Shown here piece after piece: positions 1 through 64,000 of a stretch of 64,000 nt of DNA; position 1 is the first letter of the stretch, and each line of letters opens with the position of its first letter. The notes beneath the pieces were generated by a model, which saw only the letters and a list, made by a program, of their open reading frames with translations, did no database searches and had not been told where the DNA came from. Origin of the DNA: a virus; IMG/VR virus record IMGVR_UViG_3300013233_000246, positions 1 to 64,000 of that record; one strand, given 5' to 3'. Position numbers and translations under genes: made by a program.

Positions 1-10
1 AATATATTGT

Positions 11-1510
11 TTGTTGAATAATATAACACAACTTCCTAAATGTGAGGTTTGTGACAATCATGTAAAATTTAGAAATGATGGTAAGTATGCTGGCTCATAT
101 GCGAATTTTTGTTCTAGAGGATGTATATCCAAAGGCAGTACGACCAAAGCAAAAAAGAGAAGCACCACATTAAAGAATCACGGTGTTGAAAATCCATTTC
201 AATCGGAAGAAATAAAAAAAATAATAAGAAAGACCATGTTAGATACCCATGGCGTTAAGTATCCACTTCAGAATCCTCAAATTTTAGAAAAGATGGAAAC
301 CACCATGTTGGATTTATATGGTGTTAAGAATGCTAGATCCAGTATCGAATTTAATACCAAAATCAAAAAAACAAACATGGCACGTTATGGTTCTGAAAAT
401 CCATTTAGTGCCGAATTGATAAAAAATAAAATCAAACAGTCGATTAAATTGGAACACGGTGTCGAACATATATCACAGAAACATATTTCCGAATTGTCGA
501 TGAACCTATTAAACAATAAAGAATGGCTACGCGAACAACACCATGCAAATAGTAGGTTATTGATTGATATTGCGGATGAGCTTGGTGTTACTTATACAAC
601 AGTTGGGAGATATTTAAAAAAATTTGATATAGATATTAAACATTATGGTACGTCTATAGCAGAAACAGAAATATTGCGATTTTTACAAGAAACCATACCT
701 GATGTTGAAATTAAAACTAACATTACATCTATAATAAAACCATATGAGCTTGACATTTATATACCAAAATATAAGTTAGCTATTGAATATAATGGATTAT
801 ATTGGCATTCTGAAGCAGCCGGTAAAGATGCCAAGTACCATTTAATGAAAACTCAAAAGTGCGAAGAACGTGACATTCGTCTTATTCATATTTTTGAAGA
901 TGAATGGAGAGATCAGCAACAAAAATGTAAGGATTCACTTAGGCACTTTATAGGGAAATCTGATAAAGGGATATATGCAAGAAAGACAACAATTTCCGAA
1001 ATAACATGGAAACAAGCTAAAGAATTTTTGAATGAATATCATTTATTGAATGAGGGCAAACCGGGTAATTATAGAATTGGCGCTTTTGATGAGAATAATA
1101 ATTTGATTGGTGTTATGGTTTTTGGACAATCAAACAATGAAGGTGGTGATTGTGCAACAGAACTTAAGCGATTTGTTACAAATAAGAAAAATAATCCAGG
1201 TTTAGGTTCAAAAATGTTCAAGTACGCAATAAAAGAAAAGGGGTATGATGAAATCATTGCATTTGTTGATCGTAGATGGTTTACTGGAAATGTAAAAGAT
1301 CACATAGGATTTAAAAAAATATCAGAAGTTGCTCCTTCTGTATGGTGGACAGATGGTAAAACCCGTTATCATAGAAGATTTGTTACAAGAAAAAAATTAA
1401 TTGTAGAAGGATATGATGATAATATGAGCAAACGTGAAATATTGGAATCTATTGGATATAGTAGAATATGGGATGCAGGAAAACTTAAACTTGGATGGTA
1501 TAGTACATAA
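11..1510 (+). CDS. Putative homing-endonuclease-like protein (Zn ribbon + KxGVEN repeats + HTH + PD-(D/E)xK/Vsr-like nuclease + C-terminal GNAT/Mom-like domain); probably 5'-truncated by the window edge
   Basis: CEVC..FCSRGC; repeats HGVENPF/HGVKYPL/YGVKNAR/YGSENPF/HGVEHIS; ELDIYIPKYKLAIEYNGLYWHS; C-terminal ELKRF..IIAFVDRRW. The frame is open back to the window start. Confidence 0.75.
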   Translation: MLNNITQLPKCEVCDNHVKFRNDGKYAGSYANFCSRGCISKGSTTKAKKRSTTLKNHGVENPFQSEEIKKIIRKTMLDTHGVKYPLQNPQILEKMETTMLDLYGVKNARSSIEFNTKIKKTNMARYGSENPFSAELIKNKIKQSIKLEHGVEHISQKHISELSMNLLNNKEWLREQHHANSRLLIDIADELGVTYTTVGRYLKKFDIDIKHYGTSIAETEILRFLQETIPDVEIKTNITSIIKPYELDIYIPKYKLAIEYNGLYWHSEAAGKDAKYHLMKTQKCEERDIRLIHIFEDEWRDQQQKCKDSLRHFIGKSDKGIYARKTTISEITWKQAKEFLNEYHLLNEGKPGNYRIGAFDENNNLIGVMVFGQSNNEGGDCATELKRFVTNKKNNPGLGSKMFKYAIKEKGYDEIIAFVDRRWFTGNVKDHIGFKKISEVAPSVWWTDGKTRYHRRFVTRKKLIVEGYDDNMSKREILESIGYSRIWDAGKLKLGWYST

Positions 1511-2168: not shown

Positions 2169-2405
2169 ATGGAACTTGTTGATATTATTAACCTGAGCGA
2201 ACCATTGGAAGAAAAATCTAAACCTTCTTCTGGTCTTTCAAAAGGTGAAAAATCGAGTATCGTTAAAAAAGCCAAGAAAGGCGAAGACGTTGGAAAAAAG
2301 GGTAAAAACTTTGACAACGTAGCAGCTAAAGCAGCTAAAGAATATGGTTCTAAGGAAGTAGCTGAACGTGTTGCTGCCGCAGCAATGTGGAAAAATGCAA
2401 AATAA
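2169..2405 (+). CDS. Basic head-associated hypothetical protein
   Basis: KPSSGLSKGEKSSIVKKAKKGEDVGKKGKNF..AAAAMWKN domain typical of T4-like phages; ATG 2169 follows the previous stop. Confidence 0.6.
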   Translation: MELVDIINLSEPLEEKSKPSSGLSKGEKSSIVKKAKKGEDVGKKGKNFDNVAAKAAKEYGSKEVAERVAAAAMWKNAK

Positions 2406-2426: not shown

Positions 2427-3062
2427 ATGTCATCACAATTATTATTTGAAGAACTATCACCATCACAAGCAGGATTGATAACAGAATCCAGCTCAGATGG
2501 TGCCAATACATGGCTTAATGGTATTTTTATGCAAGGTGGTATTAAAAACCGTAATGGTCGTTTATACCCTATCAATGAAATTGCAGCTGCTGTTACTTCA
2601 GCTCAACAAAAGATTAATGAATCTAATGGAATATTTGGAGAACTTGATCATCCACAAACACTATCAATCAATCTTGATCGTATTTCACATGTTATAACTG
2701 AAATTCGTATTGAAGGTCAAAATGCAATCGGTAAAGCAAAATTACTTAGTACTCCAATGGGTAACATTGCACGTGAACTTGCAAATTCTGGTGTAGCACT
2801 TGGTGTATCCTCGCGTGGTGCTGGACAAGTAAATGAAGATGGTGGTGTAACTGGATTTAATTTTGTAACTGTAGATATCGTTGCACAACCATCCGCACCG
2901 CAGGCATATCCATCAACAGTAGTGGAATCACTTGATATGGCAAAGAATGGACATAACATTATAAGCCTTGCAGAAGACATGAAACGCGATGAAGCAGCAC
3001 AAAAATATTTCAAAAAAGAAATAGAAAAATGGATAAACACTGGACTTTTTGCAAAAAAGTAA
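2427..3062 (+). CDS. gp21: Prohead core protease
   Basis: GIFMQ..KNRNGRLYP, GELDHP, DRISH, GVSSRGAG, DIVAQPSAPQA motifs. Confidence 0.96.
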   Translation: MSSQLLFEELSPSQAGLITESSSDGANTWLNGIFMQGGIKNRNGRLYPINEIAAAVTSAQQKINESNGIFGELDHPQTLSINLDRISHVITEIRIEGQNAIGKAKLLSTPMGNIARELANSGVALGVSSRGAGQVNEDGGVTGFNFVTVDIVAQPSAPQAYPSTVVESLDMAKNGHNIISLAEDMKRDEAAQKYFKKEIEKWINTGLFAKK

Positions 3063-3225: not shown

Positions 3226-4224
3226 ATGGAAGAATTGCTGCAAAAATTATTGGAAGCTGACATCCTTTCTGAAGATACAAAGAAAGATCTTGAAACCGCA
3301 TTCCAGACTAAATTAGATGAAGCCATCACTGCCGCAAAAGAAACCGCTGCTGATGATGTCCGTGCAGAACTAACAGAACAGTGGGTTGAACAACGTGATC
3401 AACTTGTTGAAGCTGTGGATGCAAAAGTGGACGATTTTCTTGGACGTGAAGTCGAAGAACTAAAAGAAGACATTGAACGTTTCCGTGATTTGGAAGCTGA
3501 ATATGCAGAAAAGCTTGTTGAAGCTAAAGCTGCTATGTCTGACGAACTTAAAGATGACTTGTTGGAACTTGTTGAGAAAGTAGATTCATTCCTTGAAATG
3601 CGTCTTGCTTCTGAACTTGATGAATTACACGAAGATCTTGAAGCACAACGTAAGAACGATTTCGGTCGTCGTGTGTTTGAAGCATTCTCTGAAGAATTCA
3701 TGGTTAACTATTCTGATGAAGAATCTGCTGAAATCAGCCTACGTGAAACACAAGAACGTTTACATGACGCTGAAGAAGCTTTACAAGAATCCGAAAAAGC
3801 ACGTGCGGAAGTAGATCGCCTTGTGGAAATGGAAAGAATTTTAGCACCTCTTACTGGACGCCAGAAAGAAGTGATGGAAGCAATCCTTAAAACTGTTGCT
3901 ACGGAGCAGTTGGAAGAAGGATATAAGACCTTTATTGGTCGCGTAATCCGTGAAAACGACTCAGAGAAGGAAGGTTCAGTACTAGCTGAGAAAGAAGATT
4001 GTGATGATGACGATGACGACGATGACGACAAGTCCGATAACTTCAAGAAGAAGTCTAAGAAGAAGTCTGATAAAGATGACGACAAGAAGAAAAAAGATGA
4101 CGACGAAGAAATGGAAGAAGGCGTACTAATCACAGGCGACAAACAGGAAATTATGGTAGAAGGTGTTTCTGTTGAAATGTCTGAAACTACTAAGAAACTG
4201 CGTATACTCGCCGGTATTGAATAA
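3226..4224 (+). CDS. gp22: Prohead core scaffold protein
   Basis: Acidic coiled coil between protease and capsid genes; FGRRVFEAFSEEF; poly-D/poly-K block; C-terminal KLRILAGIE. Confidence 0.88.
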   Translation: MEELLQKLLEADILSEDTKKDLETAFQTKLDEAITAAKETAADDVRAELTEQWVEQRDQLVEAVDAKVDDFLGREVEELKEDIERFRDLEAEYAEKLVEAKAAMSDELKDDLLELVEKVDSFLEMRLASELDELHEDLEAQRKNDFGRRVFEAFSEEFMVNYSDEESAEISLRETQERLHDAEEALQESEKARAEVDRLVEMERILAPLTGRQKEVMEAILKTVATEQLEEGYKTFIGRVIRENDSEKEGSVLAEKEDCDDDDDDDDDKSDNFKKKSKKKSDKDDDKKKKDDDEEMEEGVLITGDKQEIMVEGVSVEMSETTKKLRILAGIE

Positions 4225-4259: not shown

Positions 4260-5723
4260 ATGGAATCATTATTCGAAAACTGGAATGAAACCAAAGCAGC
4301 AATGCTTGAAGGTTTAGATTCTGGAAAACAAAAAATCGTTGGTCAGCTTTTGGAAAACCAAAAGTCTTCAATGATTACAGAAGAAGCTGCGGCTGGTGCA
4401 ACAAGTGCACATGACATCTCAGGCTTCCGTAAAATTTTAATCCCAATGATACGTCGTATTATTCCTGGCACTATTGCTACTGAGTTAGTTGGTGTCCAGC
4501 CTATGACTGGTCCTGTTGGATTAGTATACACGCTACGTTACCGTTATGCGGAAGCAGTAGCAAGTACATCACACTCTAACCCATTTGGTCTTCCAGGTGC
4601 TATTGGAGTTGGTGACGAAGTATTTGGTAATAGTTCACCTATCCGCCAATGGTATTCATCTGGTGCTGGTGATGGTGCTCCTGCTGGTGTAGCAGACGCA
4701 CAAGTTGCTGGTGCATCTGGTATTAATAGTGCCCCTAACGCAGAAACACCAATTTCTACAGCAGAAGGTACTGGTAATGCTTGGCCTTCAAGTCTTGGTG
4801 CTGCTGATACTTCACAGTTTGGTCCATTTGCTGAAAACGTTGCGGACTTAGGTCGAGGCGGCGTAGCTGGTTCACTACACGGTGGTTCTGGTAGCTTCTT
4901 GGAAGGTTCTGGTGGTCGTAAGATGACTATGGACGTTGTAAACCAAGCAGTTGAAGCTGGCTCGCGTAAATTACAAGCTGGTTGGACTATTGAAGCTATG
5001 CAAGATCTTAACGCACAGCATGGTCTTGACCTTGAATCAGAAATGACTCAAGCACTATCTGCTGAAATCGTTCAAGAAATTGACCAAGAAATCATCACTG
5101 ACTTACTTGCACTTGCTGGTACAGTTGATTCATTTGATGGTGCTGGTACAGGTTCTTACGGTACTGCTGGTAACTACACACCTGCTTATGTTGGTGACCG
5201 TCTTGCTAACCTTGGTGTTATTATCAACCGTGTAGCAAACGAAATCGCACGTAAAACACGTCGCGGTGCTGGTAACTACATCGTAGTTTCACCATTAATC
5301 GTTTCTATTCTTCAGTCTGCAAGCAAGTCTGTATTTGCGCCTGCTATTGAAGGTTCATTTAAAGGTCCAAACAACACTATGTTAGTTGGTACTTTGAACG
5401 GTTCAATCAAAGTGTATTCTTATCTTTGGAATCAAGTTGGTGCTGGCGTAGACTTAGGTCCAGCTTCTCCACAAGGAAATGCACAAGATACTATCCTTGT
5501 TGGTTATAAAGGTGGTAACGGTGAAACGGACACAGGTTATTTCTACTGTCCTTATATTCCACTAATGTCTTCTGGCGTTGTGGTTCACCCAACTACGTTC
5601 CAACCTGTAGTTAGTTTGATGACTCGTTATGGTAAAGCAGTATTCACCCATACACAAACATCCCTCGGTAATTCCGCAGATTATTACGGAAAAATCAATG
5701 TGGTAAACCTAGACTTAGCATAA
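4260..5723 (+). CDS. gp23: Major capsid protein
   Basis: LIPMIRR, VGVQPMTGPVGLVYTLRYRY, RKLQAGWTIEAMQDL, TRRGAGNY, YCPYIPL, TFQP..TRYG. Confidence 0.98.
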   Translation: MESLFENWNETKAAMLEGLDSGKQKIVGQLLENQKSSMITEEAAAGATSAHDISGFRKILIPMIRRIIPGTIATELVGVQPMTGPVGLVYTLRYRYAEAVASTSHSNPFGLPGAIGVGDEVFGNSSPIRQWYSSGAGDGAPAGVADAQVAGASGINSAPNAETPISTAEGTGNAWPSSLGAADTSQFGPFAENVADLGRGGVAGSLHGGSGSFLEGSGGRKMTMDVVNQAVEAGSRKLQAGWTIEAMQDLNAQHGLDLESEMTQALSAEIVQEIDQEIITDLLALAGTVDSFDGAGTGSYGTAGNYTPAYVGDRLANLGVIINRVANEIARKTRRGAGNYIVVSPLIVSILQSASKSVFAPAIEGSFKGPNNTMLVGTLNGSIKVYSYLWNQVGAGVDLGPASPQGNAQDTILVGYKGGNGETDTGYFYCPYIPLMSSGVVVHPTTFQPVVSLMTRYGKAVFTHTQTSLGNSADYYGKINVVNLDLA

Positions 5724-5762: not shown

Positions 5763-5800
5763 GTTGTCTATTGGGAAATAGTCCCGCCTAATACCATGTT

Positions 5801-5833
5801 GATAAATAGTATTATATATGATATAATACTATT
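5801..5833 (+). promoter_or_regulatory. Late promoter GATAAATA overlapped by a 13-bp inverted repeat
   Basis: GATAAATA 5801-5808; AATAGTATTATAT-ATG-ATATAATACTATT 5805-5833 just before the GGAG RBS. Confidence 0.55.
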
Positions 5834-5846
5834 AGTGGAGAATATA

Positions 5847-7520
5847 ATGCCAATAGCAAAAAATAAACAAGAAGAATTTAATAAACAATACATAAATGGT
5901 TTATTGAATGAAAATAGAATAAAATTATTAGAACCATTTACAGGCGCAAAAAAACACCATACTATGGAATGTTTGGTATGTGGTCATATATGGAGAGCTA
6001 CACCTATATCCAAACGAAGAAATTATAAAATTTATGGTAAAGGTGGTTGCCCACAATGCAATACGACCACTCGCGATACTGGATATAAAAAAATAAGAGA
6101 ACAAAATCTCAAAAAATTAAAAGATAGGGGAATTGTAGTTTTAACAAAAGATTATGATGGTAGGACATATCTTGATTATGATAACAACCCACATAAAAAA
6201 ATAAAAGTAAAAAATCTTAATTGTGGGCATATATTTGAATGTTCACCAAGTAATCTATTAAACGCAAAAACAGAGTGTGCAATATGTGGGCCACAAAACA
6301 GGGCGAAGCCATTAATACAGTGGTCTAAAAACAATTCCAAAGAATGGAAAAAAACAGCAGGTGAATGGGAAATATATAGGAATTCCGCCCATGAATTAAC
6401 ACGACTAGAATACAATAAAAATAAACATATTATAAATCCAAAGAATCTGCCACGTGGTAAAGCTGGTGTTGTAGGAGCTTATCATCTTGATCACATAGTT
6501 CCAGTGAGATTTTGTTTTGATAACAATATACCACTTGAAGTTTGTGCACATATATCCAATTTACAAATGTGTCCATGGAGAGATAATATATCTTCACGAA
6601 ATCACATAAAAGGATCGCTACCGCCAATGTTCTTACAGTATGTTGAAAGTGGAAAGCGTATCAAAAAACTGGCGAATAGTCTAAAAGTACAAATTTTACC
6701 CAATGCCAAGTTATTTTATCAATTGGATGATATCAACATTACACTTTATGATAAAAAATCTAAAGTGGGGATTGTTATAATACCGTTGGATAAATCATTT
6801 GCTAATATGAAAACTGCACATCTTTCTATGAAAACTATGCAAAAAAATAACATCAAACCATTTATAATTTTTGAAGATGAACTCAATAAAGATTTTATTG
6901 TTAATAAAATAGAACATTATTTAGGTAAATCCAATAAGAACATACATAGGATTCATGGCAGAAAATGCATTATTAAACAAATAGAATCTAAAGAAAAATC
7001 AAAATTTTTGAATACTTACCACATTCAAGGAAATGATAAATCCCAAATATCTTATGCCGCCTATCACGAAGACGAATTGGTCGCAGTAATGACATTCACC
7101 AAACCTCGTCCACTATTGGGATATAAAGATCCAGATAGAAGTGTGTATGCTGACATGTGGGAATTATCACGATTTGCAACTAATACAAATTATAGAATTC
7201 CTGGGATAGCAAGTAAGCTATTATCTACTTTTAAAAATGAAAATGTATGGGAAAAAATAATAAGTTATGCAGATAAGCGATGGAGTGTCGGGAATCTTTA
7301 CGATGTTCTTGGATTTACTATGGAAAAATCTAATCCCCCTGATTATTTTTATATTGTTGATGGTATACGAAAACACAGATGGAATTATAGAAAAGATAAA
7401 TTAAAAGAAATATTGTCAAATTATGACCCAAATATTACAGAATATGAAAACATGGAGAATGCTGGATATTATAGGCTGTGGGGATGTGGCACCTTGCGGT
7501 ACGTTCTTATAAATACTTAA
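5847..7520 (+). CDS. Zn-ribbon/HNH endonuclease-like protein with degenerate PD-(D/E)xK domain and C-terminal GNAT/Mom-like domain
   Basis: CLVCGH..CPQC, CGHIF..CAIC; YHLDHIVP..NLQMCPWRDN; C-terminal WELSRFAT..IISYADKRWS..YDVLGF; start at ATG 5847 after GGAG. Confidence 0.75.
   Translation: MPIAKNKQEEFNKQYINGLLNENRIKLLEPFTGAKKHHTMECLVCGHIWRATPISKRRNYKIYGKGGCPQCNTTTRDTGYKKIREQNLKKLKDRGIVVLTKDYDGRTYLDYDNNPHKKIKVKNLNCGHIFECSPSNLLNAKTECAICGPQNRAKPLIQWSKNNSKEWKKTAGEWEIYRNSAHELTRLEYNKNKHIINPKNLPRGKAGVVGAYHLDHIVPVRFCFDNNIPLEVCAHISNLQMCPWRDNISSRNHIKGSLPPMFLQYVESGKRIKKLANSLKVQILPNAKLFYQLDDINITLYDKKSKVGIVIIPLDKSFANMKTAHLSMKTMQKNNIKPFIIFEDELNKDFIVNKIEHYLGKSNKNIHRIHGRKCIIKQIESKEKSKFLNTYHIQGNDKSQISYAAYHEDELVAVMTFTKPRPLLGYKDPDRSVYADMWELSRFATNTNYRIPGIASKLLSTFKNENVWEKIISYADKRWSVGNLYDVLGFTMEKSNPPDYFYIVDGIRKHRWNYRKDKLKEILSNYDPNITEYENMENAGYYRLWGCGTLRYVLINT
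7508..7515 (+). promoter_or_regulatory. Late promoter TATAAATA with ATG 6 nt downstream
   Basis: Perfect T4 late consensus; no SD sequence. Confidence 0.7.
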
Positions 7521-7880
7521 ATGAAACTATATCAACTATTTGAAAATCCCACAGATTTTTCTAACCTCATAAAAGATAAGTATAACCTTACTACATTCTT
7601 TGTATATGAACGTCCTGACACAATAGCCCTAGATATGATAGAAGTGCCAAAGGCTGATCGCAAACAGGGTATTGGAACAGCAGTAATGAACGAACTTATA
7701 CAATACGCAGATGAACAAGGCAAAAGAATAGTATTGACCCCAGGACTTAAAGATGATAGGCATGGCACCACATCACGTGCACGCTTAGTAAAATTCTACA
7801 AACGCTTTGGTTTTGTTGAAAATAAAGGTAGAAATAAAGACTTCGCAATATCAGATGGTATGTTCCGAAATCCCCAATAG
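7521..7880 (+). CDS. GNAT family acetyltransferase with capsid-targeting-like leader
   Basis: RKQGIGTAVM (motif A), FYKRFGF (motif B); N-terminus MKLYQLFE. Confidence 0.85.
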   Translation: MKLYQLFENPTDFSNLIKDKYNLTTFFVYERPDTIALDMIEVPKADRKQGIGTAVMNELIQYADEQGKRIVLTPGLKDDRHGTTSRARLVKFYKRFGFVENKGRNKDFAISDGMFRNPQ

Positions 7881-20217: not shown

Positions 20218-20955
20218 ATGAAAGAACATCTACTGGAAAAGTTAACTACATATAAAGAATTAGCACTTTGCGCAAAAGACCCTGTTTACTTTATTGATAA
20301 TTATGCTACTTGTATAAATCCAACACATGGCAATTTTCCCATGGTGCTTCAGGAATATCAAGAAGATTTATTAAAGACATATGTTAATAGTAATACAATA
20401 GTTAATGCACCCAGACAATCTGGTATAACATTAACAACAAGCATGTATATTTTGTGGTATGCGATGTTTAATCCATTTAAAACTATAGGGATAATATCTG
20501 ATAAAAGACAAAGTACCTTTTATAATTTAGTGATGGTACGCCACGCATACAACAATCTTCCCGATTTTCTTAAAGAGATTGTTGGTATTAAAGTCAACAA
20601 TAAGGGATCTATGCAATTTTCAAACGATTCGTTGATTTTAGCACTTTCCACTGAACCTTGTTCTATGCGTGGAATATCTTTTGATATGATACATTTGGAT
20701 AATTTTTCTTATGTTAAAGAAAGTAAACAGGAAGATATATATGACTACGTTCAAATATCTACATATGCCAACAAATCAAAGATAATAATAACCTCAACGG
20801 GAGCTAATGCTGTAGGAAAGTTCCATGAACTATTTCAAGATGCTTTAGTAGGTATGAATTCCTTTAAGTCTGTGCACATAAAAATAGATAGTCTTTCTCC
20901 ACAATATAAAAGATTAATCGTTAAGGAGGATGATTATGGCACGCAAATTAAATAA
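20218..20955 (+). CDS. Truncated terminase large subunit ATPase paralog with degenerate Walker A/B
   Basis: DPVYFIDNY, LQEYQ, PRQSGIT (K to I), HLDNF (E to N); no nuclease domain. Confidence 0.8.
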   Translation: MKEHLLEKLTTYKELALCAKDPVYFIDNYATCINPTHGNFPMVLQEYQEDLLKTYVNSNTIVNAPRQSGITLTTSMYILWYAMFNPFKTIGIISDKRQSTFYNLVMVRHAYNNLPDFLKEIVGIKVNNKGSMQFSNDSLILALSTEPCSMRGISFDMIHLDNFSYVKESKQEDIYDYVQISTYANKSKIIITSTGANAVGKFHELFQDALVGMNSFKSVHIKIDSLSPQYKRLIVKEDDYGTQIK

Positions 20956-22492
20956 TAGATTAAGAACAGAAAATCAAGAAATAGAATATACCGAAGAACA
21001 CGTAGCAGAACTTTTAACGTGTGCCACAGATCCTGTTTATTTTATTAGTAGTTATGTCAAAGTACAACATCCAACCAAAGGTGCTATGCCATTTAAACTA
21101 TATGACTATCAGAAAAAGATGGTTAATATTTTTCATACAGAAAGATATAGTATAACGCTTTCTGCAAGACAAACAGGAAAATCTGTAACATCCGCCGCAT
21201 ATCTATTATGGTTTGCGATGTTTAATCGTGATAAAACTATTCTTATTGCCGCAAATAAAAATGCCAATGCCATGGAAATGATATTGCGTATACGTTACGC
21301 ATATGAAGAATTGCCATTTTGGCTTAAGCCTGGTGTTAAAGATGATGGTTGGAATAAACATGAAATTGGTTTTGATAATGGTTCGCGTATAGTATCAACA
21401 GCCACCTCGGCTGATTCTGGTCGTGGTATGGCTATTTCGTTATTGTTCCTCGATGAATTTGCATTTGTTAAACCAACAATTCAAGATGAATTTTGGACAT
21501 CAATATCACCAACACTATCAACTGGTGGTGCTTGTATAATGACATCAACCCCCAATGGTGATATGAACATTTATGCCCAGGTGTGGCGTGCAGCATTGGC
21601 TGGCACGAATGGTTATAAGCCAATCCATGTTAAGTGGAATGAACCGCCTGGTCGCGATGAAAGATTCAAGGAAGAGGAAATTGGTCGCATTGGTACAAGA
21701 CGTTGGTCGCAAGAATATGAATGTGAATTTTTGTCATCTGATGCACAATTGATCGATTCTTTGTTTTTGGCAAACCTTACAAAAGAACTGGATGGAATTT
21801 TACCATTAACAAATATCCGTGGTGTTACGTTTTTCGAGAAGATTAACCCAGCGTCAACATACTTGGTTGGCGTAGATCCATCGTCGGGTAACGGCGAAGA
21901 CTTTAGTGTAATTGAAGTATTTGAATTTCCTTCATTAAAACAGGTTGCAGAATATCGTTCCAATACAATGTCAATGAAAGATTTATATGACGTTTTGAAG
22001 AATGTTTTATTATATCTTGAAGATAGGGCAGAAACTGTGTTCTTTTCAATAGAAAATAATGGCGTTGGTAATGGTCTTATTACATTACACGAAGCCGATG
22101 AAGATCCAGTAACATTAGCAGAATTTATTTCAGAACCTGGTAAGGAAAAAATGGGGTTTACAACAACCGCCAAAAGTAAGATGAAGAACTGTGTTACTTT
22201 TAAAGAAATAATTGAACGTGGACAGATGAAAGTTAAGTCGCATACCCTATTGAGTGAAATGAAATCGTACGTAAGATATAAGGGTGCCTATGCAGCGCAG
22301 GCTGGTGCATCTGATGACTGCATATCTGCATGTCTTATAGTTATACGTATATTGGAAGAAATATCACAATATGAAACTGCCGCATACGAAACCTTGTATT
22401 CCGCAGAAGTGCAAGAATGGGATTCAGAAACATGGGATGGATATGATGGTGGTTACGACGAATCGGAAGAAGGTTTGCCTATTTTATTATAA
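20936..22492 (+). CDS. gp17: Terminase large subunit
   Basis: ARQTGKS, LFLDEFAF, TSTPNG, QEYECEF, GVDPSSGNGEDFS, IENN, DDCISA; AAGGAGG RBS. Confidence 0.97.
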   Translation: MARKLNNRLRTENQEIEYTEEHVAELLTCATDPVYFISSYVKVQHPTKGAMPFKLYDYQKKMVNIFHTERYSITLSARQTGKSVTSAAYLLWFAMFNRDKTILIAANKNANAMEMILRIRYAYEELPFWLKPGVKDDGWNKHEIGFDNGSRIVSTATSADSGRGMAISLLFLDEFAFVKPTIQDEFWTSISPTLSTGGACIMTSTPNGDMNIYAQVWRAALAGTNGYKPIHVKWNEPPGRDERFKEEEIGRIGTRRWSQEYECEFLSSDAQLIDSLFLANLTKELDGILPLTNIRGVTFFEKINPASTYLVGVDPSSGNGEDFSVIEVFEFPSLKQVAEYRSNTMSMKDLYDVLKNVLLYLEDRAETVFFSIENNGVGNGLITLHEADEDPVTLAEFISEPGKEKMGFTTTAKSKMKNCVTFKEIIERGQMKVKSHTLLSEMKSYVRYKGAYAAQAGASDDCISACLIVIRILEEISQYETAAYETLYSAEVQEWDSETWDGYDGGYDESEEGLPILL

Positions 22493-23671: not shown

Positions 23672-23679
23672 GATAAATA
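23672..23679 (+). promoter_or_regulatory. Late promoter GATAAATA with ATG 6 nt downstream
   Basis: Late consensus directly after the terminator. Confidence 0.65.
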
Positions 23680-23684
23680 TATTC

Positions 23685-24281
23685 ATGAAAGAAAAATATA
23701 TGTTTATTCGTGGTAAACGAGTGTTAGACCAAATGGCAGCCTTAGAAATTATCGCGGAACAATCTACTTATAATCAATTAAAGACCAACGTTGACAATTT
23801 TGTGCCACAAGGTTCTGGCCGTGGCGATGGTACAAAGCGATATAAAAGGCAATATGCGACAGGTGAAGTTAATTTGAAAAATGTTGTATGGCGGGCAGCG
23901 TATGGTGTTAAGGCTCTGGAAGTTACGGCAAATGCACTCGGTGGTGAAAAGCCCTATCAACCAAAAATAATTTTTAATGGTGTAGATTTTGATGATGAAG
24001 ACACTGAAGATAATATAACCGTTCCAGCTGAGGCGGGGGATATACATTTTCAGAAAATAAATTTATCAGAAAAGACTATGCGTGTAAGATGTGACTGTCC
24101 AGATTTCTATTGGAGATTTGCATCATTTAATGCTAAAGATAAAAGTCTTAATGGACGAGCGCCAAAGCCATATCAATCAAAAACAAACAGAGGTCCTGTC
24201 AACCCACAACAAGTCCCTGGTATGTGTAAGCATCTTTTAAAAATAATTGAAGTTTTAAAACAGAATGGTGCTGTTAATTAA
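23685..24281 (+). CDS. SWIM zinc-finger protein
   Basis: VRCDCPDF..NP...PGMCKH. Confidence 0.75.
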   Translation: MKEKYMFIRGKRVLDQMAALEIIAEQSTYNQLKTNVDNFVPQGSGRGDGTKRYKRQYATGEVNLKNVVWRAAYGVKALEVTANALGGEKPYQPKIIFNGVDFDDEDTEDNITVPAEAGDIHFQKINLSEKTMRVRCDCPDFYWRFASFNAKDKSLNGRAPKPYQSKTNRGPVNPQQVPGMCKHLLKIIEVLKQNGAVN

Positions 24282-58877: not shown

Positions 58878-59876
58878 ATGAACAGAATAATCACACGTGC
58901 ACTAATGCGTCACCACAATGATTTCTTTAAGATGTCAGAAGATGAACAGGACGCATTCAAATTGCAAGATCATGACGAGCTTGATGAAAAAATTTCTGAG
59001 TTTGTGAACGAAGAAATTGGTTTTGATGAAAAGAAGGATGAATATAATCATAAGAAACTTCTTGAGCGCAATAAAATTATGTTGCATTATCTGGGTATAG
59101 GGTCAAATTATTTCATGCTCAATGAATTTGGTTGGCGTGAAGAAGTCCTCAAATATAAAAACTTCTACGAATATAATGAAGCTAATCACATCTTCCAAGA
59201 AACTTCTTGGGCTGAAGAGTCTTCAGACTATAAACAAAAAGAATTATTTAATAGACTTTCTGAATGGGCACGCGTAGAAATCGACGGAAAGTTTAATTAT
59301 CTTAACATCAACAGTTATCAAATTTGGATTTACTATGCCATAGAAGAATTTGAGATGGATTGGATTGATGATCATATCCCCAATGAATATGTACCTGGGC
59401 CAAATAATGGTAAGAAAGCAAAAGGTGGAACTATTTGGGATATGCGTCCTGATGCCCAAGGCAAAGAAGGTTGGCTTGAACAGATGAGAGACTTTTCACG
59501 TAAATGGATTAGTGCATGGTATGATAAAGCCATCTATGAACATAAATGGAATGTAGTATTCATCAACGATACATCTGGTAAAGATTTTGATGGCGACCCA
59601 AACAAAGAATACATTTTTGGTTCCTTGGATATTCTAAAGAACGTTGGGTTTAAGACTTTCGTGGATGATTGTGAAAAATTGAAAGGTGATTCTGAGTTGG
59701 CATATCAATATAGAGATGGAATCATAAAAGAATTGCGAATCGCTCTCGAAGAAAAGTTCATTGAAGTGCAGAAGACTCCACCCAATGTAGTTAAGCTGCG
59801 TAAAAAAATGAAAGTATCTGTGGCTGATGGTGCATTTGATAGTTTAATAGACACTGGTGATGAAGATGGGGATTAG
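58878..59876 (+). CDS. Hypothetical protein
   Basis: 332-aa ORF with phage-like composition. Confidence 0.7.
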   Translation: MNRIITRALMRHHNDFFKMSEDEQDAFKLQDHDELDEKISEFVNEEIGFDEKKDEYNHKKLLERNKIMLHYLGIGSNYFMLNEFGWREEVLKYKNFYEYNEANHIFQETSWAEESSDYKQKELFNRLSEWARVEIDGKFNYLNINSYQIWIYYAIEEFEMDWIDDHIPNEYVPGPNNGKKAKGGTIWDMRPDAQGKEGWLEQMRDFSRKWISAWYDKAIYEHKWNVVFINDTSGKDFDGDPNKEYIFGSLDILKNVGFKTFVDDCEKLKGDSELAYQYRDGIIKELRIALEEKFIEVQKTPPNVVKLRKKMKVSVADGAFDSLIDTGDEDGD

Positions 59877-60584
59877 GATTAATCGTGTATTGGATTATGG
59901 TTTAACCAATGTTGTGGCAAATAAGGAACGCTGGATTACGGCGATGATCCGCGTTTCAATAAAAATAGTTATCTATTCAATGAATTTGATGAAAAGTATT
60001 CTATTGGGGGCTTCATTGAATATTTGCAGGCACAATTGGAGAAACTCGATGAAGGTGACACGCCTCGTTTTGATTTGCGACTTCTTATACGTGAATTAGA
60101 AGACGAGGAAACAAAATACGACTTCTATAATTCGCTTGTATATGATATGGAAATGGGACTCGACAATGTTATGTGTTTTGTCCCACCGTCACAGGTTCGT
60201 GTATGGCACCGATATGACGATACTATTGATTATTATGATCCTACAAATCGTTCAGAAGATGGTGGCATGCGGACTTTCATCATGGTAGATAGCGCTTTAT
60301 ATCCATATGACTCATATACAAATATTAAAAAAATACCACCTACTACTTTGACTGGTGTTCAACTTTCACATTATTATTCGTTAAAAAATCATGGATTTGA
60401 TAGGCTGGTTGATCCAGAATCGGCATTTAAACACCTTGGGGTTGATAATCTTAATGAATTGAAAAATATGATAATCCCAACAATACCATTAGAACTTGTT
60501 GAATTGTTAAAATATCTTGAGATTTTTGTTGATGAAAGTTGGATTTATCAACTAAGACCCATGATTTACGGTTATTGGGCATAG
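59866..60584 (+). pseudogene. Hypothetical protein apparently broken by a frameshift near 59925-59945
   Basis: MGIRINRVLDYGL.. continues in the -1 frame as DDPRFNKNSYLF..YLQAQLEK..; that frame is open from 59925. Confidence 0.55.
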
Positions 60585-60614: not shown

Positions 60615-60622
60615 TATAAATA
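60615..60622 (+). promoter_or_regulatory. Late promoter TATAAATA
   Basis: Perfect consensus before the terminal operon. Confidence 0.75.
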
Positions 60623-60653
60623 CAAGGAAATATGTATAATACGGAGTTCATAG

Positions 60654-61847
60654 ATGAAACCTTTAAATAAATTACGTATAAACGCTGGTCTTCCAATGGA
60701 TCTTACCATTGAAACTGCACCAGATGTTGAAGGTAAGCAAATCACAGAAGCACGCGAAGCCCCAAGAATGTCCCGTGACTTAGCCACAACGGATAAGCGC
60801 AGTCTTGGTTCAAAAGTACGTGGTGTTGAACGTGCGATGGATCACATCAGACAGGCAATTGGTGTTTTAGAAAAAATCCCCGCAACTGATTATAGTGGTG
60901 AAATCCCTCACTTTATAAGCGAGCTTGAAGATTTGTTGGATGGTGATACCCGTAGTGGTATGACTGGTTATCTTGATACTATATCTGGCGAGCGCGATAA
61001 TTTTGGCAAAGAACCAGAACTAGAAGCAGATCCTGAAGAAATGGATGCGGACATGGAAATGTCGGATGATCCAGAGATGGCTGTTGATGATGAAATGGGT
61101 GCAATGGATGATATGCCACCAGAAGAAGATGAAGTTATGCCCGAAGCTGATGATTTCATGAAAAATCTTACACCAAAGCAACAAGAACAACTAGCAGCTG
61201 CTATTGCCACGCTTAGTATTCTTACCAATGGAAGCATGATTAAAGAAACTATGATGCGCGTTGCTAAGATAACAGGCAAAACTCTTGAAGAAGCGGCTGG
61301 TTATTATAATGTGAATTATGATAGTTGGGAAGATTCTTCGCGACCTGTTAATGTTTCCAATGGTTCTGCAAATGATGAACAAGTAATGGATACTATGTCT
61401 GATCCTAAGAAAGAAGGTCCAGAACAAACAAAAACAATGGATCAGCAAGATAATTCACCTGTTGATAAATCTGGAGATGACTTATCTAACACAATCAAAA
61501 TTCCTAAATATGTAACAAAGGGTTTGAAAGATGCTATTGCAGACTTTCGTAAATCTGAAAAGGATGAACAAAAACGAAACAAAGGATTTGCAAAAGACGC
61601 AGAATACCTTTATAGGGATTCTGCCCGTGCGTTTGAAGAATTATTGGAATTGCTCAATGGTAGTGTTTACGATTTTAAGCTTGCTCAAGTTAAAATGTCA
61701 TCTTTGATGGGACCTATGCTTCATAAGATTCCACCCAAAATAGTTAAATTTATTGCATCCGGCGGTGAACCACAATCATTGAAAAGTTATATGACTGAGG
61801 TACCTAAGAAGTACCCAATCACTGGACCACGGAATACAATGAAATGA
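60654..61847 (+). CDS. Probable prohead core/internal head protein
   Basis: N-terminal LNKLRINAGL like the gp22 C-terminus; ITE/IKE/LEE candidate protease sites; M/D-rich linker. Confidence 0.6.
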   Translation: MKPLNKLRINAGLPMDLTIETAPDVEGKQITEAREAPRMSRDLATTDKRSLGSKVRGVERAMDHIRQAIGVLEKIPATDYSGEIPHFISELEDLLDGDTRSGMTGYLDTISGERDNFGKEPELEADPEEMDADMEMSDDPEMAVDDEMGAMDDMPPEEDEVMPEADDFMKNLTPKQQEQLAAAIATLSILTNGSMIKETMMRVAKITGKTLEEAAGYYNVNYDSWEDSSRPVNVSNGSANDEQVMDTMSDPKKEGPEQTKTMDQQDNSPVDKSGDDLSNTIKIPKYVTKGLKDAIADFRKSEKDEQKRNKGFAKDAEYLYRDSARAFEELLELLNGSVYDFKLAQVKMSSLMGPMLHKIPPKIVKFIASGGEPQSLKSYMTEVPKKYPITGPRNTMK

Positions 61848-62314
61848 AAGTAAAAGATATTATAAGTGAAACATTCGGACAAGGATTCTCCAGTGGCGAA
61901 GACAATGGGTATGGTGAAAACTATGCTTCCGAAATGGAACAGGAAACTATTAATTCAGAAATGGCTGCCGATTATAAAAAGGATAGGACGCCTGTAAGTG
62001 AATTTGATATTGAAGAAATAAAACGTTTGGTCAGCCCTGCTGCTAGAAACAGCCGGGATGTTAAAAAGCAAGTTGATGGTGTTATTGCCGACTGGCAAGA
62101 AATGATGGATGAAGATTCATATATAGAAGATGATCTTTTCAATAAAACATATGCACAGTATAAAGCATTAAAAGATTCCAAAGATGAACCACTTATTAAA
62201 TTTAATAAAATGCACGCAATAACAAAGGAAGTTAAGGATGCCGCAGATAAATTTGAAGAATATTCAAATAGTGATAAAGCGGATCAGTGGAAAGACGAAA
62301 AAGGTTATTTCTAA
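61844..62314 (+). CDS. Putative internal head protein
   Basis: Leader MKVKDIISE; ATGA coupling. Confidence 0.65.
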   Translation: MKVKDIISETFGQGFSSGEDNGYGENYASEMEQETINSEMAADYKKDRTPVSEFDIEEIKRLVSPAARNSRDVKKQVDGVIADWQEMMDEDSYIEDDLFNKTYAQYKALKDSKDEPLIKFNKMHAITKEVKDAADKFEEYSNSDKADQWKDEKGYF

Positions 62315-62319
62315 AAATA

Positions 62320-62508
62320 ATGAAACTTAAAGAAGTGGCAAATAAGCCACTACAATATGGTGACCGAGTGGTACATGTGGACGAAGATTCAAAGTACGCA
62401 GGTCTTATTGGAAAGATAGTGGAAATGAACCCTTCTATGGCGATGGTAAAATGGGAATTTCAAAATAAGCCAATAGCAATGACATTAAATGGATTGAAAC
62501 GAGCATGA
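62320..62508 (+). CDS. Small SH3/KOW-like putative internal head protein
   Basis: Leader MKLKEV; GDRV..G..GKIVE..VKWE. Confidence 0.6.
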   Translation: MKLKEVANKPLQYGDRVVHVDEDSKYAGLIGKIVEMNPSMAMVKWEFQNKPIAMTLNGLKRA

Positions 62509-63125
62509 AAGTAAAGGACATAGTAGAAGGTAGGCATCCGCACGATCAATATTATCGTCCAAAGCCAAAAAGCCAATTTAAAACTAAGCCCCGCCCAAAG
62601 AAAACCCTCCATTATACGAAGGATATGTTTGATAATTGGGCAACTGACATTCGTACGCGATTTTCTGATGCTACTGCGTATTACGACGAAGAAAATGAAG
62701 AGGTTATAGCAACTTCACCCGATAAGAAACACACATATGGTAAATGGTCTAAGAATCGTAAAGGGGATTACAAAGGCGTATCCTTTTACAATAAAAGACC
62801 ATTAAACACTGTTACGCGTTCAAAGCGGTTGACACCAACAGCAGAAGGATTGGATGTGAAAATATTAAAAGATTTGTTATTTGAAAATGAAACGGTAGAA
62901 GATCTTCCTGATGATTTAGTTAATCAACTAGAACAGCGGGCACAGGATGAAAGGTCGGCAGGCGGATCTGTTGAAATTAATTATGGTTTGCCTTATGTTG
63001 CCGTAACCATGTCAGATGGCGCAGAATATTTTTTCCAGGGTGAAGAAGCTGATGATTTGTTGTCGGAAGTACCAGACAACATACACCCAGAAGATTTTAT
63101 ATTGATGATAGCACAGAATTGGTAA
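62505..63125 (+). CDS. Putative internal head (poly)protein with two leaders
   Basis: MKVKDIVE and internal VKILKDLLFE. Confidence 0.65.
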   Translation: MKVKDIVEGRHPHDQYYRPKPKSQFKTKPRPKKTLHYTKDMFDNWATDIRTRFSDATAYYDEENEEVIATSPDKKHTYGKWSKNRKGDYKGVSFYNKRPLNTVTRSKRLTPTAEGLDVKILKDLLFENETVEDLPDDLVNQLEQRAQDERSAGGSVEINYGLPYVAVTMSDGAEYFFQGEEADDLLSEVPDNIHPEDFILMIAQNW

Positions 63126-63131
63126 TATGAT

Positions 63132-63557
63132 ATGAAAATGATACAAGCTTTATTAGAAATGTCACAACAAAATATAGTTCTTAGAACTAATGATATTGAT
63201 GAATATAATGCCTTTATTGATAAGGCATCAAGACCAGACAACGATTACCATTATGAAGAAGTCCCAGACAAAAATGGTACTGGTCTTTATGATATTATCG
63301 TAGAAGTATTTGATTATGCGAGATCACCTCAAACTAGACACGATCCAGAAAGTGTTGATATAGATTGGGATGTAGTATATTATGGTTCTGGGGATTTTGA
63401 TAATGAACGCGATTTTTATATTGTCAAAGGGAGTATAGAATTGCCAGATAACGTAGAACAAGATATTGAACAACGTCTTATGGAAGATCAGGATGATCAA
63501 AAAGCTAACGAATATGATGATCGTGGTGATTACGAATACGATAGGAATATGAATTAA
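63132..63557 (+). CDS. Putative internal head protein
   Basis: Leader MKMIQALLE; acidic. Confidence 0.62.
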   Translation: MKMIQALLEMSQQNIVLRTNDIDEYNAFIDKASRPDNDYHYEEVPDKNGTGLYDIIVEVFDYARSPQTRHDPESVDIDWDVVYYGSGDFDNERDFYIVKGSIELPDNVEQDIEQRLMEDQDDQKANEYDDRGDYEYDRNMN

Positions 63558-63559
63558 TT

Positions 63560-64000
63560 GTGAAAGTTAATGATATTCTTTGCGAAGCCAATCGTAACAA
63601 AATAATTTTAGTAGACTTTCAACCAGTATATCTAAATGGTGGTTATGGTCACGACGAAGCCCTAGAAAATGTAATAGAATCCCTCAATAAAATGAACCCT
63701 ACGGATATTTTAGTATTTTATAATGGCGAAGAAGTTAGTATTGAAGATACATCTGATGAAGTTTTACAAATGTACATTGAACGTGGTTTAGATGAAAACA
63801 TCGCAAGTAATATGAAATTTCGTGAAAAGTCTTATGCATGGCTTCGTAATTTTATGGACGCTGGTATGGACGCTTCGTTGATAATTGCTATAATAAGATA
63901 CATGGCAATGAACAGAATAAATGATTCGCGAGATATAGATCCAGAAACGATGTCTAGTATAATAGGTAAAGAAAACTACGAAGAATGGGAAGATCTTATT
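63560..64000 (+). CDS. Isochorismatase-like fold protein, 3'-truncated by the window edge
   Basis: GTG start, (M)KVNDILCE leader, IILVDFQPVY, FYNG, FREKSYAWLR; open to the window end. Confidence 0.55.
   Translation, partial: MKVNDILCEANRNKIILVDFQPVYLNGGYGHDEALENVIESLNKMNPTDILVFYNGEEVSIEDTSDEVLQMYIERGLDENIASNMKFREKSYAWLRNFMDAGMDASLIIAIIRYMAMNRINDSRDIDPETMSSIIGKENYEEWEDLI

What the first reader, a model, noticed from the sequence alone, without database searches (positions are those of the whole stretch)
60615..64000. Putative capsid cargo-loading system: unrelated proteins share one N-terminal leader
Seen: consecutive genes behind a late promoter begin MKVKDIISE (61844), MKLKEVA (62320), MKVKDIVE (62505), MKMIQALLE (63132) and VKVNDILCE (63560) but have unrelated bodies. 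A similar M-(K/L)-h-x-(D/E/Q)-h-..E leader occurs elsewhere in the window: GNAT MKLYQLFE (7521), MLLREI (12175), HAD MLMEEL (54852), MELVDII (2169), MSILKKVLNE (11456). Known: T4 internal proteins use a ~10-aa capsid targeting sequence removed by gp21 after Glu, and this phage encodes gp21 with candidate hxE sites in gp23 (MITE) and gp22 (LLE, LAE). Inference: a portable tag packages a mixed enzyme payload (acetyltransferase, nucleotidase, isochorismatase-fold, SH3) for injection with the DNA, making these candidate host-takeover or anti-defence effectors.
Basis: partly seen in the sequence, partly recalled or inferred. Interest (0 to 1): 0.8.

Follow-up and report, generated by a model that had tools for sequence, protein, structure and literature searches.

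The report
Capsid-targeting leader on phage cargo genes
A 93-kb piece of an uncultured jumbo relative of phage T4 puts the same nine-residue N-terminal tag, ending in the cut site of its head protease, on at least eight unrelated proteins; this most likely loads them into the capsid as T4 loads its internal proteins, a principle already known from T4, and packaging has not been shown here.

Summary
The leader M-K-(V/L)-x-(D/E)-I-(I/L/V)-x-E occurs six times in the six-frame translation of the 93-kb contig. All six sit directly on a start codon (0.065 expected). Three are in the window and three lie beyond it. The protein bodies are unrelated.

Two close metagenomic relatives keep the same late-promoter box followed by six consecutive leader genes. 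Cassettes are swapped between them, and one fusion in this phage keeps a leader internally.

In two cargo families (233 homologues) the residue before the mature domain is always Glu, and the residue two before it is Leu or Ile in 230. That is the L/I-x-E motif of T4 gp21. It holds even where the leader lies inside fusion proteins.

The phage has a gp21-family (S77) protease, and its capsid-protein site ITE-41 aligns with the T4 gp23 cut site. AlphaFold leaves exactly the leader unstructured. In the distant relative PA5oct, two of three leader proteins are annotated as found in virions by mass spectrometry.

This is best read as a T4-type capsid targeting sequence in the XacN1/PA5oct jumbo-phage lineage, a new member of a known kind. 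Packaging, cleavage and injection are untested. The scan has noted similar leaders on other phage DNA.

The parts
60615..60633 (+). T4-type late-promoter-like box TATAAATA, with a conserved extension, heading the operon
   Evidence: The block TATAAATACAAGGAAATAT is identical in relatives L065 and L066, whose flanking proteins are only 44-59% identical. NATAAATA boxes precede most structural genes of the contig.
60654..61847 (+). First operon gene, 397 aa and acidic. It has a longer candidate propeptide with L/I-x-E sites at residues 20 (TIE) and 32 (ITE, followed by A).
   Evidence: Both sites are conserved in the L065 and L066 orthologues. No Pfam or PHROG match.
61844..62314 (+). 156-aa cargo gene with leader MKVKDIISE (61844-61870)
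   Evidence: Homologues start MKVNEIINE or MKVHEIINE; distant ones start MLLTE or MLLKE.
62320..62508 (+). 62-aa small basic protein (MKLKEVA); leader status doubtful
   Evidence: The L065 orthologue starts MKLEDVANKP, with Asp instead of Glu at position 5, and the gene is absent from L066. Weak phrog_2251 match only.
62505..63125 (+). 206-aa fusion of two cargo genes with N-terminal leader MKVKDIVE
   Evidence: The N-half matches the 116-aa genes of L065 and L066. The C-half matches the free-standing 90-aa gene of L066 and proteins P0241-P0246, each with its own MK-leader.
62856..62885 (+). Internal vestigial leader VKILKDLLFE (residues 118-127 of the fusion), a candidate internal cleavage site
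   Evidence: It aligns to the N-terminal leader MKLQDLME of the free-standing homologue.
63132..63557 (+). 141-aa acidic cargo gene with diverged leader MKMIQALLE
   Evidence: Orthologues start MKVQELLE and MKIQELFE. No function lead from the ESM Atlas.
63560..64000 (+). 204-aa cargo gene (runs to contig position 64174) with leader (GTG) VKVNDILCE and an alpha/beta domain
   Evidence: and 65/66. 115 of 115 homologues have Glu before the domain, and 114 have Leu or Ile two residues before it. AF2 mean pLDDT is 86.8 with residues 1-10 below 50. Weak cysteine-hydrolase/isochorismatase-like fold match.
7508..7880 (+). GNAT acetyltransferase (7521-7880) with leader MKLYQLFE; TATAAATA lies 5 nt before the ATG
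   Evidence: PF00583 above cut-off. 56% identical to the N-domain of GNAT-plus-kinase-like fusion proteins, in which the second domain keeps its leader.
2427..3062 (+). Prohead protease, T4 gp21 family (Peptidase S77); own N-terminus MSSQLLFE
   Evidence: phrog_207 at 1e-58. PF03420 at 82.5 bits. 33% identical to T4 gp21, with GELxHP and GVSSRG conserved.
3226..4224 (+). Scaffold-like protein; its N-terminus carries KLLE and DILSE motifs
   Evidence: Weak T4 scaffold matches. It sits between the protease and the capsid gene. Homologous to XacN1 ORF275.
4260..5723 (+). Major capsid protein (gp23 family); candidate maturation site ITE-41 (4371-4382)
   Evidence: phrog_138. ITE-41 aligns with the T4 gp23 LTE-65 cleavage site.
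2169..2405 (+). 78-aa ORF just upstream of the protease (MELVDIINLSE); possible prohead-core protein, weak
   Evidence: It sits where T4 has genes 67 and 68 and where PA5oct has EST35_0150, MKINDIITE. No homology shown.

Best explanation
The contig is part of an uncultured jumbo myophage of the XacN1 / Xoo-sp13 / PA5oct lineage with a T4-type head module. The shared 8-9-residue leader, M-K-(V/L/I)-x-(D/E/Q)-(I/L)-(I/L/V)-x-E, is most likely a T4-type capsid targeting sequence. Under this reading, late in infection the tagged proteins bind the scaffolding core of the prohead through the leader. The gp21-family protease then cuts after the terminal Glu (L/I-x-E, then A/G/T/S). The mature proteins stay inside the head with the DNA. 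The operon at 60654-64174 is this phage's counterpart of a T-even internal-protein locus. Further tagged genes lie elsewhere: GNAT at 7521, a kinase-fold protein at contig 66175-66807 (minus strand), a 122-aa protein at 77994, and a very basic 112-aa protein at 89232-89570 (minus strand). What is shown: the leader is non-random; selection acts on the peptide; the L/I-x-E boundary is invariant; the boundary persists at internal junctions of fusion proteins; the leader lies outside the predicted fold; it co-occurs with gp21/gp23-type genes. What is inferred: prohead targeting, cleavage by this protease, retention in the virion, and delivery into the host.
For: (1) Non-randomness: six of six regex hits sit on start codons against 0.065 expected. 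(2) Selection on the peptide rather than the DNA: the leaders differ at synonymous sites such as AAA/AAG, GAT/GAC, ATT/ATA/ATC and GTA/GTT. (3) Protease: family S77, 33% identical to T4 gp21. The capsid-protein site ITE-41 aligns with the T4 gp23 cut site LTE-65. (4) Cut-site signature: the kinase-like family has P1 = Glu in 118 of 118 and P3 = Leu or Ile in 116 of 118. The 63560 family has P1 = Glu in 115 of 115, P3 = Leu or Ile in 114 of 115, and P1' mostly Ala. The Glu lies anywhere from residue 5 to residue 156. This equals the published gp21 motif L/I-x-E (PMC9026906). (5) Fusion proteins keep the leader or junction internally, where it cannot serve initiation: P0108, P0116, P0159, P0160, P0195, P0206 and this phage's own 62505 gene. 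(6) Resemblance to T4 leaders read from NC_000866: IPII/IPIII MKTYQEFIAE, gp22 MLKEQLIAE, gp24 MAKINELLRE. Distant homologues of the kinase-like protein start MKKTFKQFLIE, and other lineages use MKSKEFLNE or MRAKEFVIE. (7) Locus behaviour: L065 and L066 keep the promoter box and six consecutive leader genes, with one cassette replaced, one gene pair fused in this phage, and the 77994 homologue inside the cluster. (8) A leader-pattern scan of IMG/VR returned mostly contigs that also carry gp21, gp23 or terminase homologues. In L006 the leader heads the gene at the scaffold position, and in L002/L011/L018 it heads a 74-aa ORF next to the protease. (9) In PA5oct, EST35_0150 and EST35_0238 carry the leader and are annotated as virion proteins by ESI-MS/MS. 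(10) AF2 gives the leader pLDDT below 50 while the domains score 87-89. (11) Every strict leader gene lies behind a NATAAATA box on its own strand.
Against: There is no direct evidence of packaging or cleavage for any protein of this phage. The PA5oct support is thin: two of three proteins, against a base rate of 93 of 461, which I estimate gives P of about 0.1, and from a relative whose capsid protein is only 38% identical. Some homologues have leaders of only five residues (MKLTE, MILTE). These can hardly hold the T4-like targeting determinants at positions 4 and 7, so the strictly conserved feature is the cut site, not a targeting element. XacN1, the nearest cultured relative, has few strict leaders; its kinase-like homologue carries a longer variant, MKQVRLSQFLSE. 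The exact TATAAATA octamer occurs 17 times, close to my own back-of-envelope chance estimate of about 20, so the promoter argument rests on position and conservation. Most cluster proteins are acidic with unknown function and could be expendable core or scaffold parts rather than delivered cargo.
Confidence: 0.68

Rival explanations
1. The leader is only a prohead-protease processing site on proteins that are structural or expendable parts of the prohead core, like T4 gp67, gp68 and gp22. They are cut and mostly expelled during maturation, and are neither targeted by the leader nor delivered to the host.
For: The invariant feature is L/I-x-E, not the rest of the leader, and some homologues have only five-residue leaders. 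Leader ORFs sit at the gp67/68 and gp22 positions in L002, L006 and PA5oct. Most cluster proteins are acidic like scaffold proteins.
Against: Two tagged proteins are compact enzyme-like folds, a kinase fold and GNAT, which fits cargo better than scaffold. K2, the hydrophobic residues at 3, 6 and 7, and the acidic residue at 5 are also conserved. In T4 the same kind of leader does both jobs (PMC9026906).
Confidence: 0.17
2. The leader is a protein-level signal for something other than the head, for example a degron or chaperone tag, a membrane or secretion signal, or an activation propeptide cut by another protease.
For: No experiment ties it to the capsid in this phage. One of three PA5oct leader proteins was not detected in virions.
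Against: Nine mostly charged residues with no hydrophobic core are not a Sec or Tat signal (direct reading). The boundary matches gp21 specificity precisely. The leader travels with gp21/gp23 modules. Two PA5oct leader proteins are annotated as virion proteins.
Confidence: 0.08
3. The similarity is kept at the DNA level, as a shared translation-initiation region or a recombination cassette, with no function for the peptide.
For: A-rich codons after ATG favour initiation, and MK is a common start in AT-rich phages. Gene swaps and fusions do occur at the leaders.
Against: Synonymous differences between copies. Glu-9 and P3 Leu/Ile are invariant across homologues 30-80% identical, including contigs with 29% and 40% GC. 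The motif is retained at internal junctions of fusion proteins.
Confidence: 0.04
4. Chance, or composition bias of N-termini.
Against: Six observed against 0.065 expected, all on start codons. The leader is conserved in hundreds of homologues.
Confidence: 0.01

Closest known systems
Capsid targeting sequence (CTS) of phage T4 internal proteins IPI, IPII and IPIII (Mullaney and Black 1996, as reviewed in PMC9026906 and PMC3012670)
   Same: A short N-terminal leader of about 10 residues on unrelated proteins. It starts MK, has hydrophobic positions before an L/I-x-E end, and comes with a gp21-family protease and late genes. T4 IPII/IPIII start MKTYQEFIAE; here the leader is MKVKDILxE. Distant homologues of one cargo family start MKKTFKQFLIE.
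   Different: A different consensus, one residue shorter. The cargo has no homology to the T4 internal proteins. At least eight to ten tagged genes lie on 93 kb of what is probably a genome of 300 kb or more. Cargo includes enzyme-like folds. Nothing has been shown experimentally.
Polymorphic ip1 locus of T-even phages, encoding diverse encapsidated internal proteins that counter GmrSD-type restriction (PMC4437046, PMC3012670)
   Same: A late-expressed locus where genes with unrelated bodies and a common leader replace one another between related phages. Compare the 90-aa cassettes of L065 and L066, and the moved 77994 homologue.
   Different: Here six or seven genes sit in tandem. One lineage-specific fusion keeps an internal leader. 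No anti-restriction function is known for any member.
N-terminal propeptides of T4 gp24, gp22, gp67/gp68 and Alt, cut by gp21
   Same: The same h-x-E ends (MAKINELLRE, MLKEQLIAE, MELITELFDE). Small leader ORFs lie next to the protease in relatives.
   Different: Those are conserved structural or core proteins. The cluster here is variable and lies far from the head module.
Propeptides of inner-body and ejection proteins of phiKZ, 201phi2-1 and SPN3US (PMC5694885, PMC9026906)
   Same: Jumbo phages with a distant gp21 homologue that cuts after Glu, and many processed head-internal proteins.
   Different: Those propeptides are mostly over 100 residues, and the motif is S/A-x-E or A-x-E. Here the leader is 5-12 residues and P3 is Leu or Ile in 230 of 233 homologues.
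N-terminal packaging signal of phage P1 DarB (PMC9024508)
   Same: An N-terminal signal sufficient to load a protein into a capsid for delivery.
   Different: It is 30 residues long, no T4-type cleavage is described, and the head assembly system is unrelated. It is an analogy only.

Membership tests
T4-type CTS / internal-protein system | The phage encodes a gp21-family (Peptidase S77) prohead protease | tested here: met
   Window 2427-3062: phrog_207 at 1e-58, PF03420 at 82.5 bits against a cut-off of 27, 33% identity to T4 gp21 with GELxHP and GVSSRG conserved.
T4-type CTS / internal-protein system | The leader ends in the gp21 cleavage motif L/I-x-E | tested here: met
   All eight own leaders have Leu or Ile at P3 and Glu at P1. 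Across two cargo families, P1 is Glu in 233 of 233 homologues and P3 is Leu or Ile in 230 of 233. The motif is as published in PMC9026906.
T4-type CTS / internal-protein system | The same short N-terminal leader sits on proteins with unrelated mature parts | tested here: met
   No blastp similarity beyond residues 1-11. Different predicted folds: a kinase-like fold against an alpha/beta domain.
T4-type CTS / internal-protein system | The leader is dispensable for the fold, i.e. a removable propeptide | tested here: met
   AF2 gives residues 1-10 and 1-9 pLDDT below 50, with the rest at a mean of 87-89. Leader length varies from 5 to more than 12 residues among homologues. Distant homologues of the 90-aa family lack it.
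T4-type CTS / internal-protein system | The major capsid protein is matured at an L/I-x-E site by the same protease | tested here: inconclusive
   ITE-41 aligns with the T4 gp23 site LTE-65. Cleavage itself cannot be tested here.
T4-type CTS / internal-protein system | Late expression, at the time of prohead assembly | tested here: inconclusive
   A NATAAATA box lies upstream of every leader gene or its operon, conserved in L065 and L066. There are no transcript data, and the octamer count genome-wide is near my chance estimate.
T4-type CTS / internal-protein system | The proteins are present in virions with the leader removed | not testable with these tools
   Indirect only: PA5oct EST35_0150 and EST35_0238 carry the leader and are annotated ESI-MS/MS virion proteins. 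The N-terminal state is unknown.
T4-type CTS / internal-protein system | The leader is sufficient to package a foreign protein | not testable with these tools
   This needs a fusion experiment.
T4 IPI / IPII / IPIII protein families | Sequence homology of the mature cargo to T4 internal proteins | tested here: not met
   The cluster proteins have no tblastn match in 50,697 phage records. The kinase-like protein has no match in T4.
phiKZ-type inner-body propeptides | Long propeptides (often over 100 aa) cut at S/A-x-E | tested here: not met
   The leader is 8-9 residues and P3 is Leu or Ile, not Ser or Ala.
Sec/Tat signal peptides | A hydrophobic core of 10 or more residues after a basic N-region | tested here: not met
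   The leader has nine residues, four or five of them charged (direct reading).

The most novel reading that the evidence does not exclude
The leader marks a large, fast-turning-over arsenal of proteins that jumbo phages of the T4 superfamily inject with their DNA. It would include a Bud32/RIO-like protein kinase, a GNAT acetyltransferase, a hydrolase-like enzyme, and very acidic and very basic small proteins. The leader-coding sequence would also act as the joint for cassette exchange and, after gene fusion, as a polyprotein linker cut by the head protease. If so, the motif alone would be a genome-wide predictor of injected host-takeover and anti-defence effectors in uncultured phages.
Probability: 0.35. 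Interest if true: 0.7.

Novelty: new member of a known kind. Interest (0 to 1): 0.5.

Why it matters
T4 loads three internal proteins and Alt through a short leader, and one of them (IPI) is an injected anti-restriction protein. Reviews have suggested that related phages use the CTS to load other proteins (PMC9026906). In the open literature I could search, nothing describes this for the XacN1 / RaK2 / PA5oct group of jumbo phages. Here the leader gives a simple sequence rule: start, 5-12 residues, L/I-x-E, then the mature domain. The rule picks out candidate packaged proteins, including a kinase-fold protein and an acetyltransferase that occur fused in other phages. It also shows how such loci evolve, by cassette swap, relocation and fusion with a retained cut site. 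If confirmed by virion proteomics, it would let injected effectors be predicted from metagenomic phage sequence. It would also supply new packaging tags for protein delivery by phage.

Tried and rejected
- Megablast of the region against GenBank phages found no match.
- tblastn of the 63560 and 62505 proteins against GenBank phages found no match.
- Close-relative search of IMG/VR with the 63560 protein found none.
- tblastn of all contig proteins against XacN1 and PA5oct found head and tail homologues, but none for 60654-64174.
- Leader pattern in XacN1: one exact hit and few relaxed ones. XacN1 uses a longer variant on the one shared cargo protein.
- The ESM Atlas gave no lead for the 63132 protein.
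- Foldseek gave only weak matches for the 63560 protein, best E 3e-3 and TM 0.44, to isochorismatase-type proteins. I do not call it an isochorismatase.
- 62320 is rejected as a secure member, since its orthologue has Asp at the would-be P1.
- A signal-peptide reading is rejected on composition.
- The exact TATAAATA count across the contig is not enriched (against my own estimate). Only position and conservation of the boxes are used as evidence.


Full report
**What the DNA is.** The window is the first 64 kb of a single 93,125-bp contig. It carries a T4-type head and tail module:
- prohead protease at 2427-3062;
- a scaffold-like gene at 3226-4224;
- the major capsid protein at 4260-5723;
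- tail sheath, tail tube, head-completion and terminase genes.

The capsid protein is closest to those of jumbo myophages: Xanthomonas XacN1 (61%), Xoo-sp13, Stenotrophomonas CM1/RAS14, Ralstonia RsoM2USA and Pseudomonas PA5oct (38%). The contig is therefore most likely a fragment of an uncultured phage of about 300 kb or more.

**The observation.** I turned the three clearest leaders into the regex K[VLIM][KENQ][DE][IL][ILV].?E and scanned all six frames of the whole contig.
- There are six matches. Every one follows ATG or GTG at the head of an ORF of 112-210 codons.
- Three are in the window (61844, 62505, 63560). Three are beyond its end: contig 66807 on the minus strand (MKVKDILKE), 77994 (MKLEDILKE) and 89570 on the minus strand (MKVKDILYE).
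- Markov shuffles give 0.065 matches, 0.01 of them at start codons. A residue-shuffled proteome gives 0.07.
- The proteins share nothing beyond the leader, and the cluster proteins have no Pfam or informative PHROG match.
- The copies differ at synonymous sites, so the peptide is what is conserved.

**Why a protease-cut leader is the best reading.** Five lines of evidence point the same way.
- The protease belongs to the T4 gp21 family (Peptidase S77, 82.5 bits). It is 33% identical to gp21, with the GELxHP and GVSSRG blocks conserved. The ITE-41 site of the capsid protein aligns with LTE-65 of T4 gp23, the known maturation site.
- T4 leaders read from NC_000866 are of the same type: IPII/IPIII MKTYQEFIAE, gp22 MLKEQLIAE, gp24 MAKINELLRE, Alt MELITELFDE. 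The published gp21 motif is L/I-x-E (PMC9026906).
- Two cargo families have many metagenomic homologues. In the kinase-like family (contig 66175-66807, minus strand), the residue before the conserved (A/V/T)PLP block is Glu in 118 of 118, and P3 is Leu or Ile in 116. In the 63560 family, Glu precedes the domain in 115 of 115, P3 is Leu or Ile in 114, and P1' is mostly Ala. The Glu lies anywhere from residue 5 to residue 156. P2 is free. Two smaller families behave the same way.
- Where homologues are fused behind another domain, the junction still reads like a leader ending in L/I-x-E: GNAT plus kinase-like in P0108 and P0116; other domains plus the 63560-like domain in P0159, P0160, P0183, P0195, P0206 and P0220. 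An internal motif cannot be there for translation initiation.
- AlphaFold models of both families are confident (mean pLDDT 86.8 and 89.4) except for residues 1-10 and 1-9, which are the leader.

**The locus in relatives.** One metagenome scan with the 63560 family gave 40 loci.
- L065 and L066 are syntenic with window 58878-64497 at 44-77% protein identity. They keep the block TATAAATACAAGGAAATAT ahead of the 60654 orthologue.
- Behind it lie six consecutive genes that all begin with the leader.
- The first of these is the orthologue of this phage's 77994 gene. Here that gene has moved elsewhere and has its own TATAAATA box 28 nt upstream.
- At one position L065 and L066 hold unrelated 90-aa bodies behind the same leader.
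- The L066 version of that gene forms the C-terminal half of this phage's 62505 protein. The 62505 protein is therefore a fusion of two leader genes. It keeps VKILKDLLFE internally at residues 118-127.
- 63132 (MKMIQALLE) is a diverged leader, since its orthologues start MKVQELLE and MKIQELFE.
- More distant loci, some on contigs of 344 and 450 kb, have similar runs with lineage-specific variants close to the T4 sequence: MKSKEFLNE, MRAKEFVIE, MKSTEFITE, MRFKELLE.

This mirrors the polymorphic internal-protein locus of the T-even phages (PMC4437046; PMC3012670).

**Link to heads.**
- A DNA-pattern scan of IMG/VR for the leader returned 17 loci. Most of the independent ones also carry homologues of this phage's protease, scaffold, capsid protein, terminase or a virion protein within a few kb.
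- In L006 the leader heads the gene between protease and capsid protein, which is the scaffold position. In L002, L011 and L018 it heads a 74-aa ORF next to the protease.
- The PA5oct counterpart of that small ORF, EST35_0150 (MKINDIITE), is annotated as a structural protein found by ESI-MS/MS. So is EST35_0238 (VKIKDILVE). A third, EST35_0271, was not detected.
- The PA5oct paper reports 93 virion-associated products among 461 coding regions and does not mention a targeting sequence (PMC7318152). Two of three is therefore only suggestive.

**Cargo.**
- The GNAT at 7521 passes Pfam thresholds. It is 56% identical to the GNAT half of the GNAT-plus-kinase-like fusions.
- The kinase-like protein has a minimal protein-kinase fold: PRPK/Bud32, CK2 and RIO chains, with 179 Foldseek matches at E of 0.001 or better. 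Its invariant columns include K62, E76, D197 and G199. Reading these as the kinase Lys, Glu and DxG catalytic positions is my inference; I did not map them onto the fold matches.
- The 63560 protein is an alpha/beta domain with only a weak likeness to cysteine-hydrolase/isochorismatase folds.
- The 89232-89570 protein is very basic (pI 10.6). Most of the others are acidic (pI 4.1-5.3).

**What is not supported.**
- The HAD-like 54852 (NT5C below the Pfam cut-off) and 12175 have only generic h-x-E near the start.
- The orthologue of 62320 has Asp where Glu should be.
- 2169 and 11456 are plausible by position but unproven.
- As a class, h-x-E ending at residues 7-11 is enriched 2.5-fold at N-termini and includes the protease and the scaffold.

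**Limits.** Nothing here shows packaging, cleavage or injection in this phage. Some homologues have five-residue leaders, so the universally conserved element is the cut site rather than a targeting element.

**Verdict.** This is a T4-type capsid targeting sequence system in a jumbo-phage lineage where the open literature I could search does not describe one. It is a new member of a known kind. The scan has noted the same kind of leader on other phage DNA.

Noticed in passing
window 7508-7523, 23672-23687; contig 66820 (minus strand), 76841, 80704 and others: The distance from a [TGC]ATAAATA box to an ATG peaks sharply at exactly 5 nt: 9 cases, against 0-4 at any other spacing from 0 to 14. 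If transcription starts 6 nt after the box, as at T4 late promoters (my own knowledge), these genes, including the GNAT and the kinase-like cargo, would give leaderless late mRNAs that begin at the AUG.
   Followed up: partly
window 59857-60584: The ORFs 59857-60099 and 60024-60584 together correspond to a single 242-aa gene in relatives L065 and L066. The reading frame changes near 59930-59950. This could be an assembly indel, a pseudogene or a programmed frameshift.
   Followed up: partly
contig 66175-66807, minus strand (L021:3175-3807:-), outside the window: A leader-tagged 210-aa protein (phrog_4301, function unknown) has a minimal protein-kinase fold (Bud32/PRPK, RIO, CK2-like) and more than 300 metagenomic homologues. 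Its invariant columns include K62, E76, D197 and G199. XacN1 and Xoo-sp13 have it. In some phages it is fused behind the GNAT domain that this phage encodes at 7521.
   Followed up: partly
window 2-1510 and 5796-7520: Two large homing-endonuclease-like genes (phrog_3339 and phrog_559) bracket the protease-scaffold-capsid block. PA5oct has a 'Hef-like homing endonuclease' right after its capsid gene.
   Followed up: no
contig 69579-71672, outside the window: A capsid-protein paralogue (a gp24-like vertex protein; only residues 173-370 match) lies directly behind an ORF whose N-terminus looks like a GIY-YIG endonuclease to me by eye; I did not test it against any family library. The N-terminal part of the vertex gene may be displaced or split.
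   Followed up: no
window 20218-20955: A 245-aa paralogue of the N-terminal part of the large terminase sits just before the full-length terminase gene at 20930-22492. Another note of this scan also flagged it.
   Followed up: no
IMG/VR loci L005, L008, L009, L012: Four contigs share a 10-codon mini-ORF reading MKVKDILIEN followed by a stop, which is a leader with no body. It could be the remnant of a deleted cargo gene or a chance match.
   Followed up: no
contig 64800-80000, outside the window: Many short minus-strand ORFs containing GFEP-type peptides are, in my reading, tRNA genes translated by the ORF finder. I did not run a tRNA search. A large tRNA array would fit XacN1-like phages (PMC5852040).
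   Followed up: no
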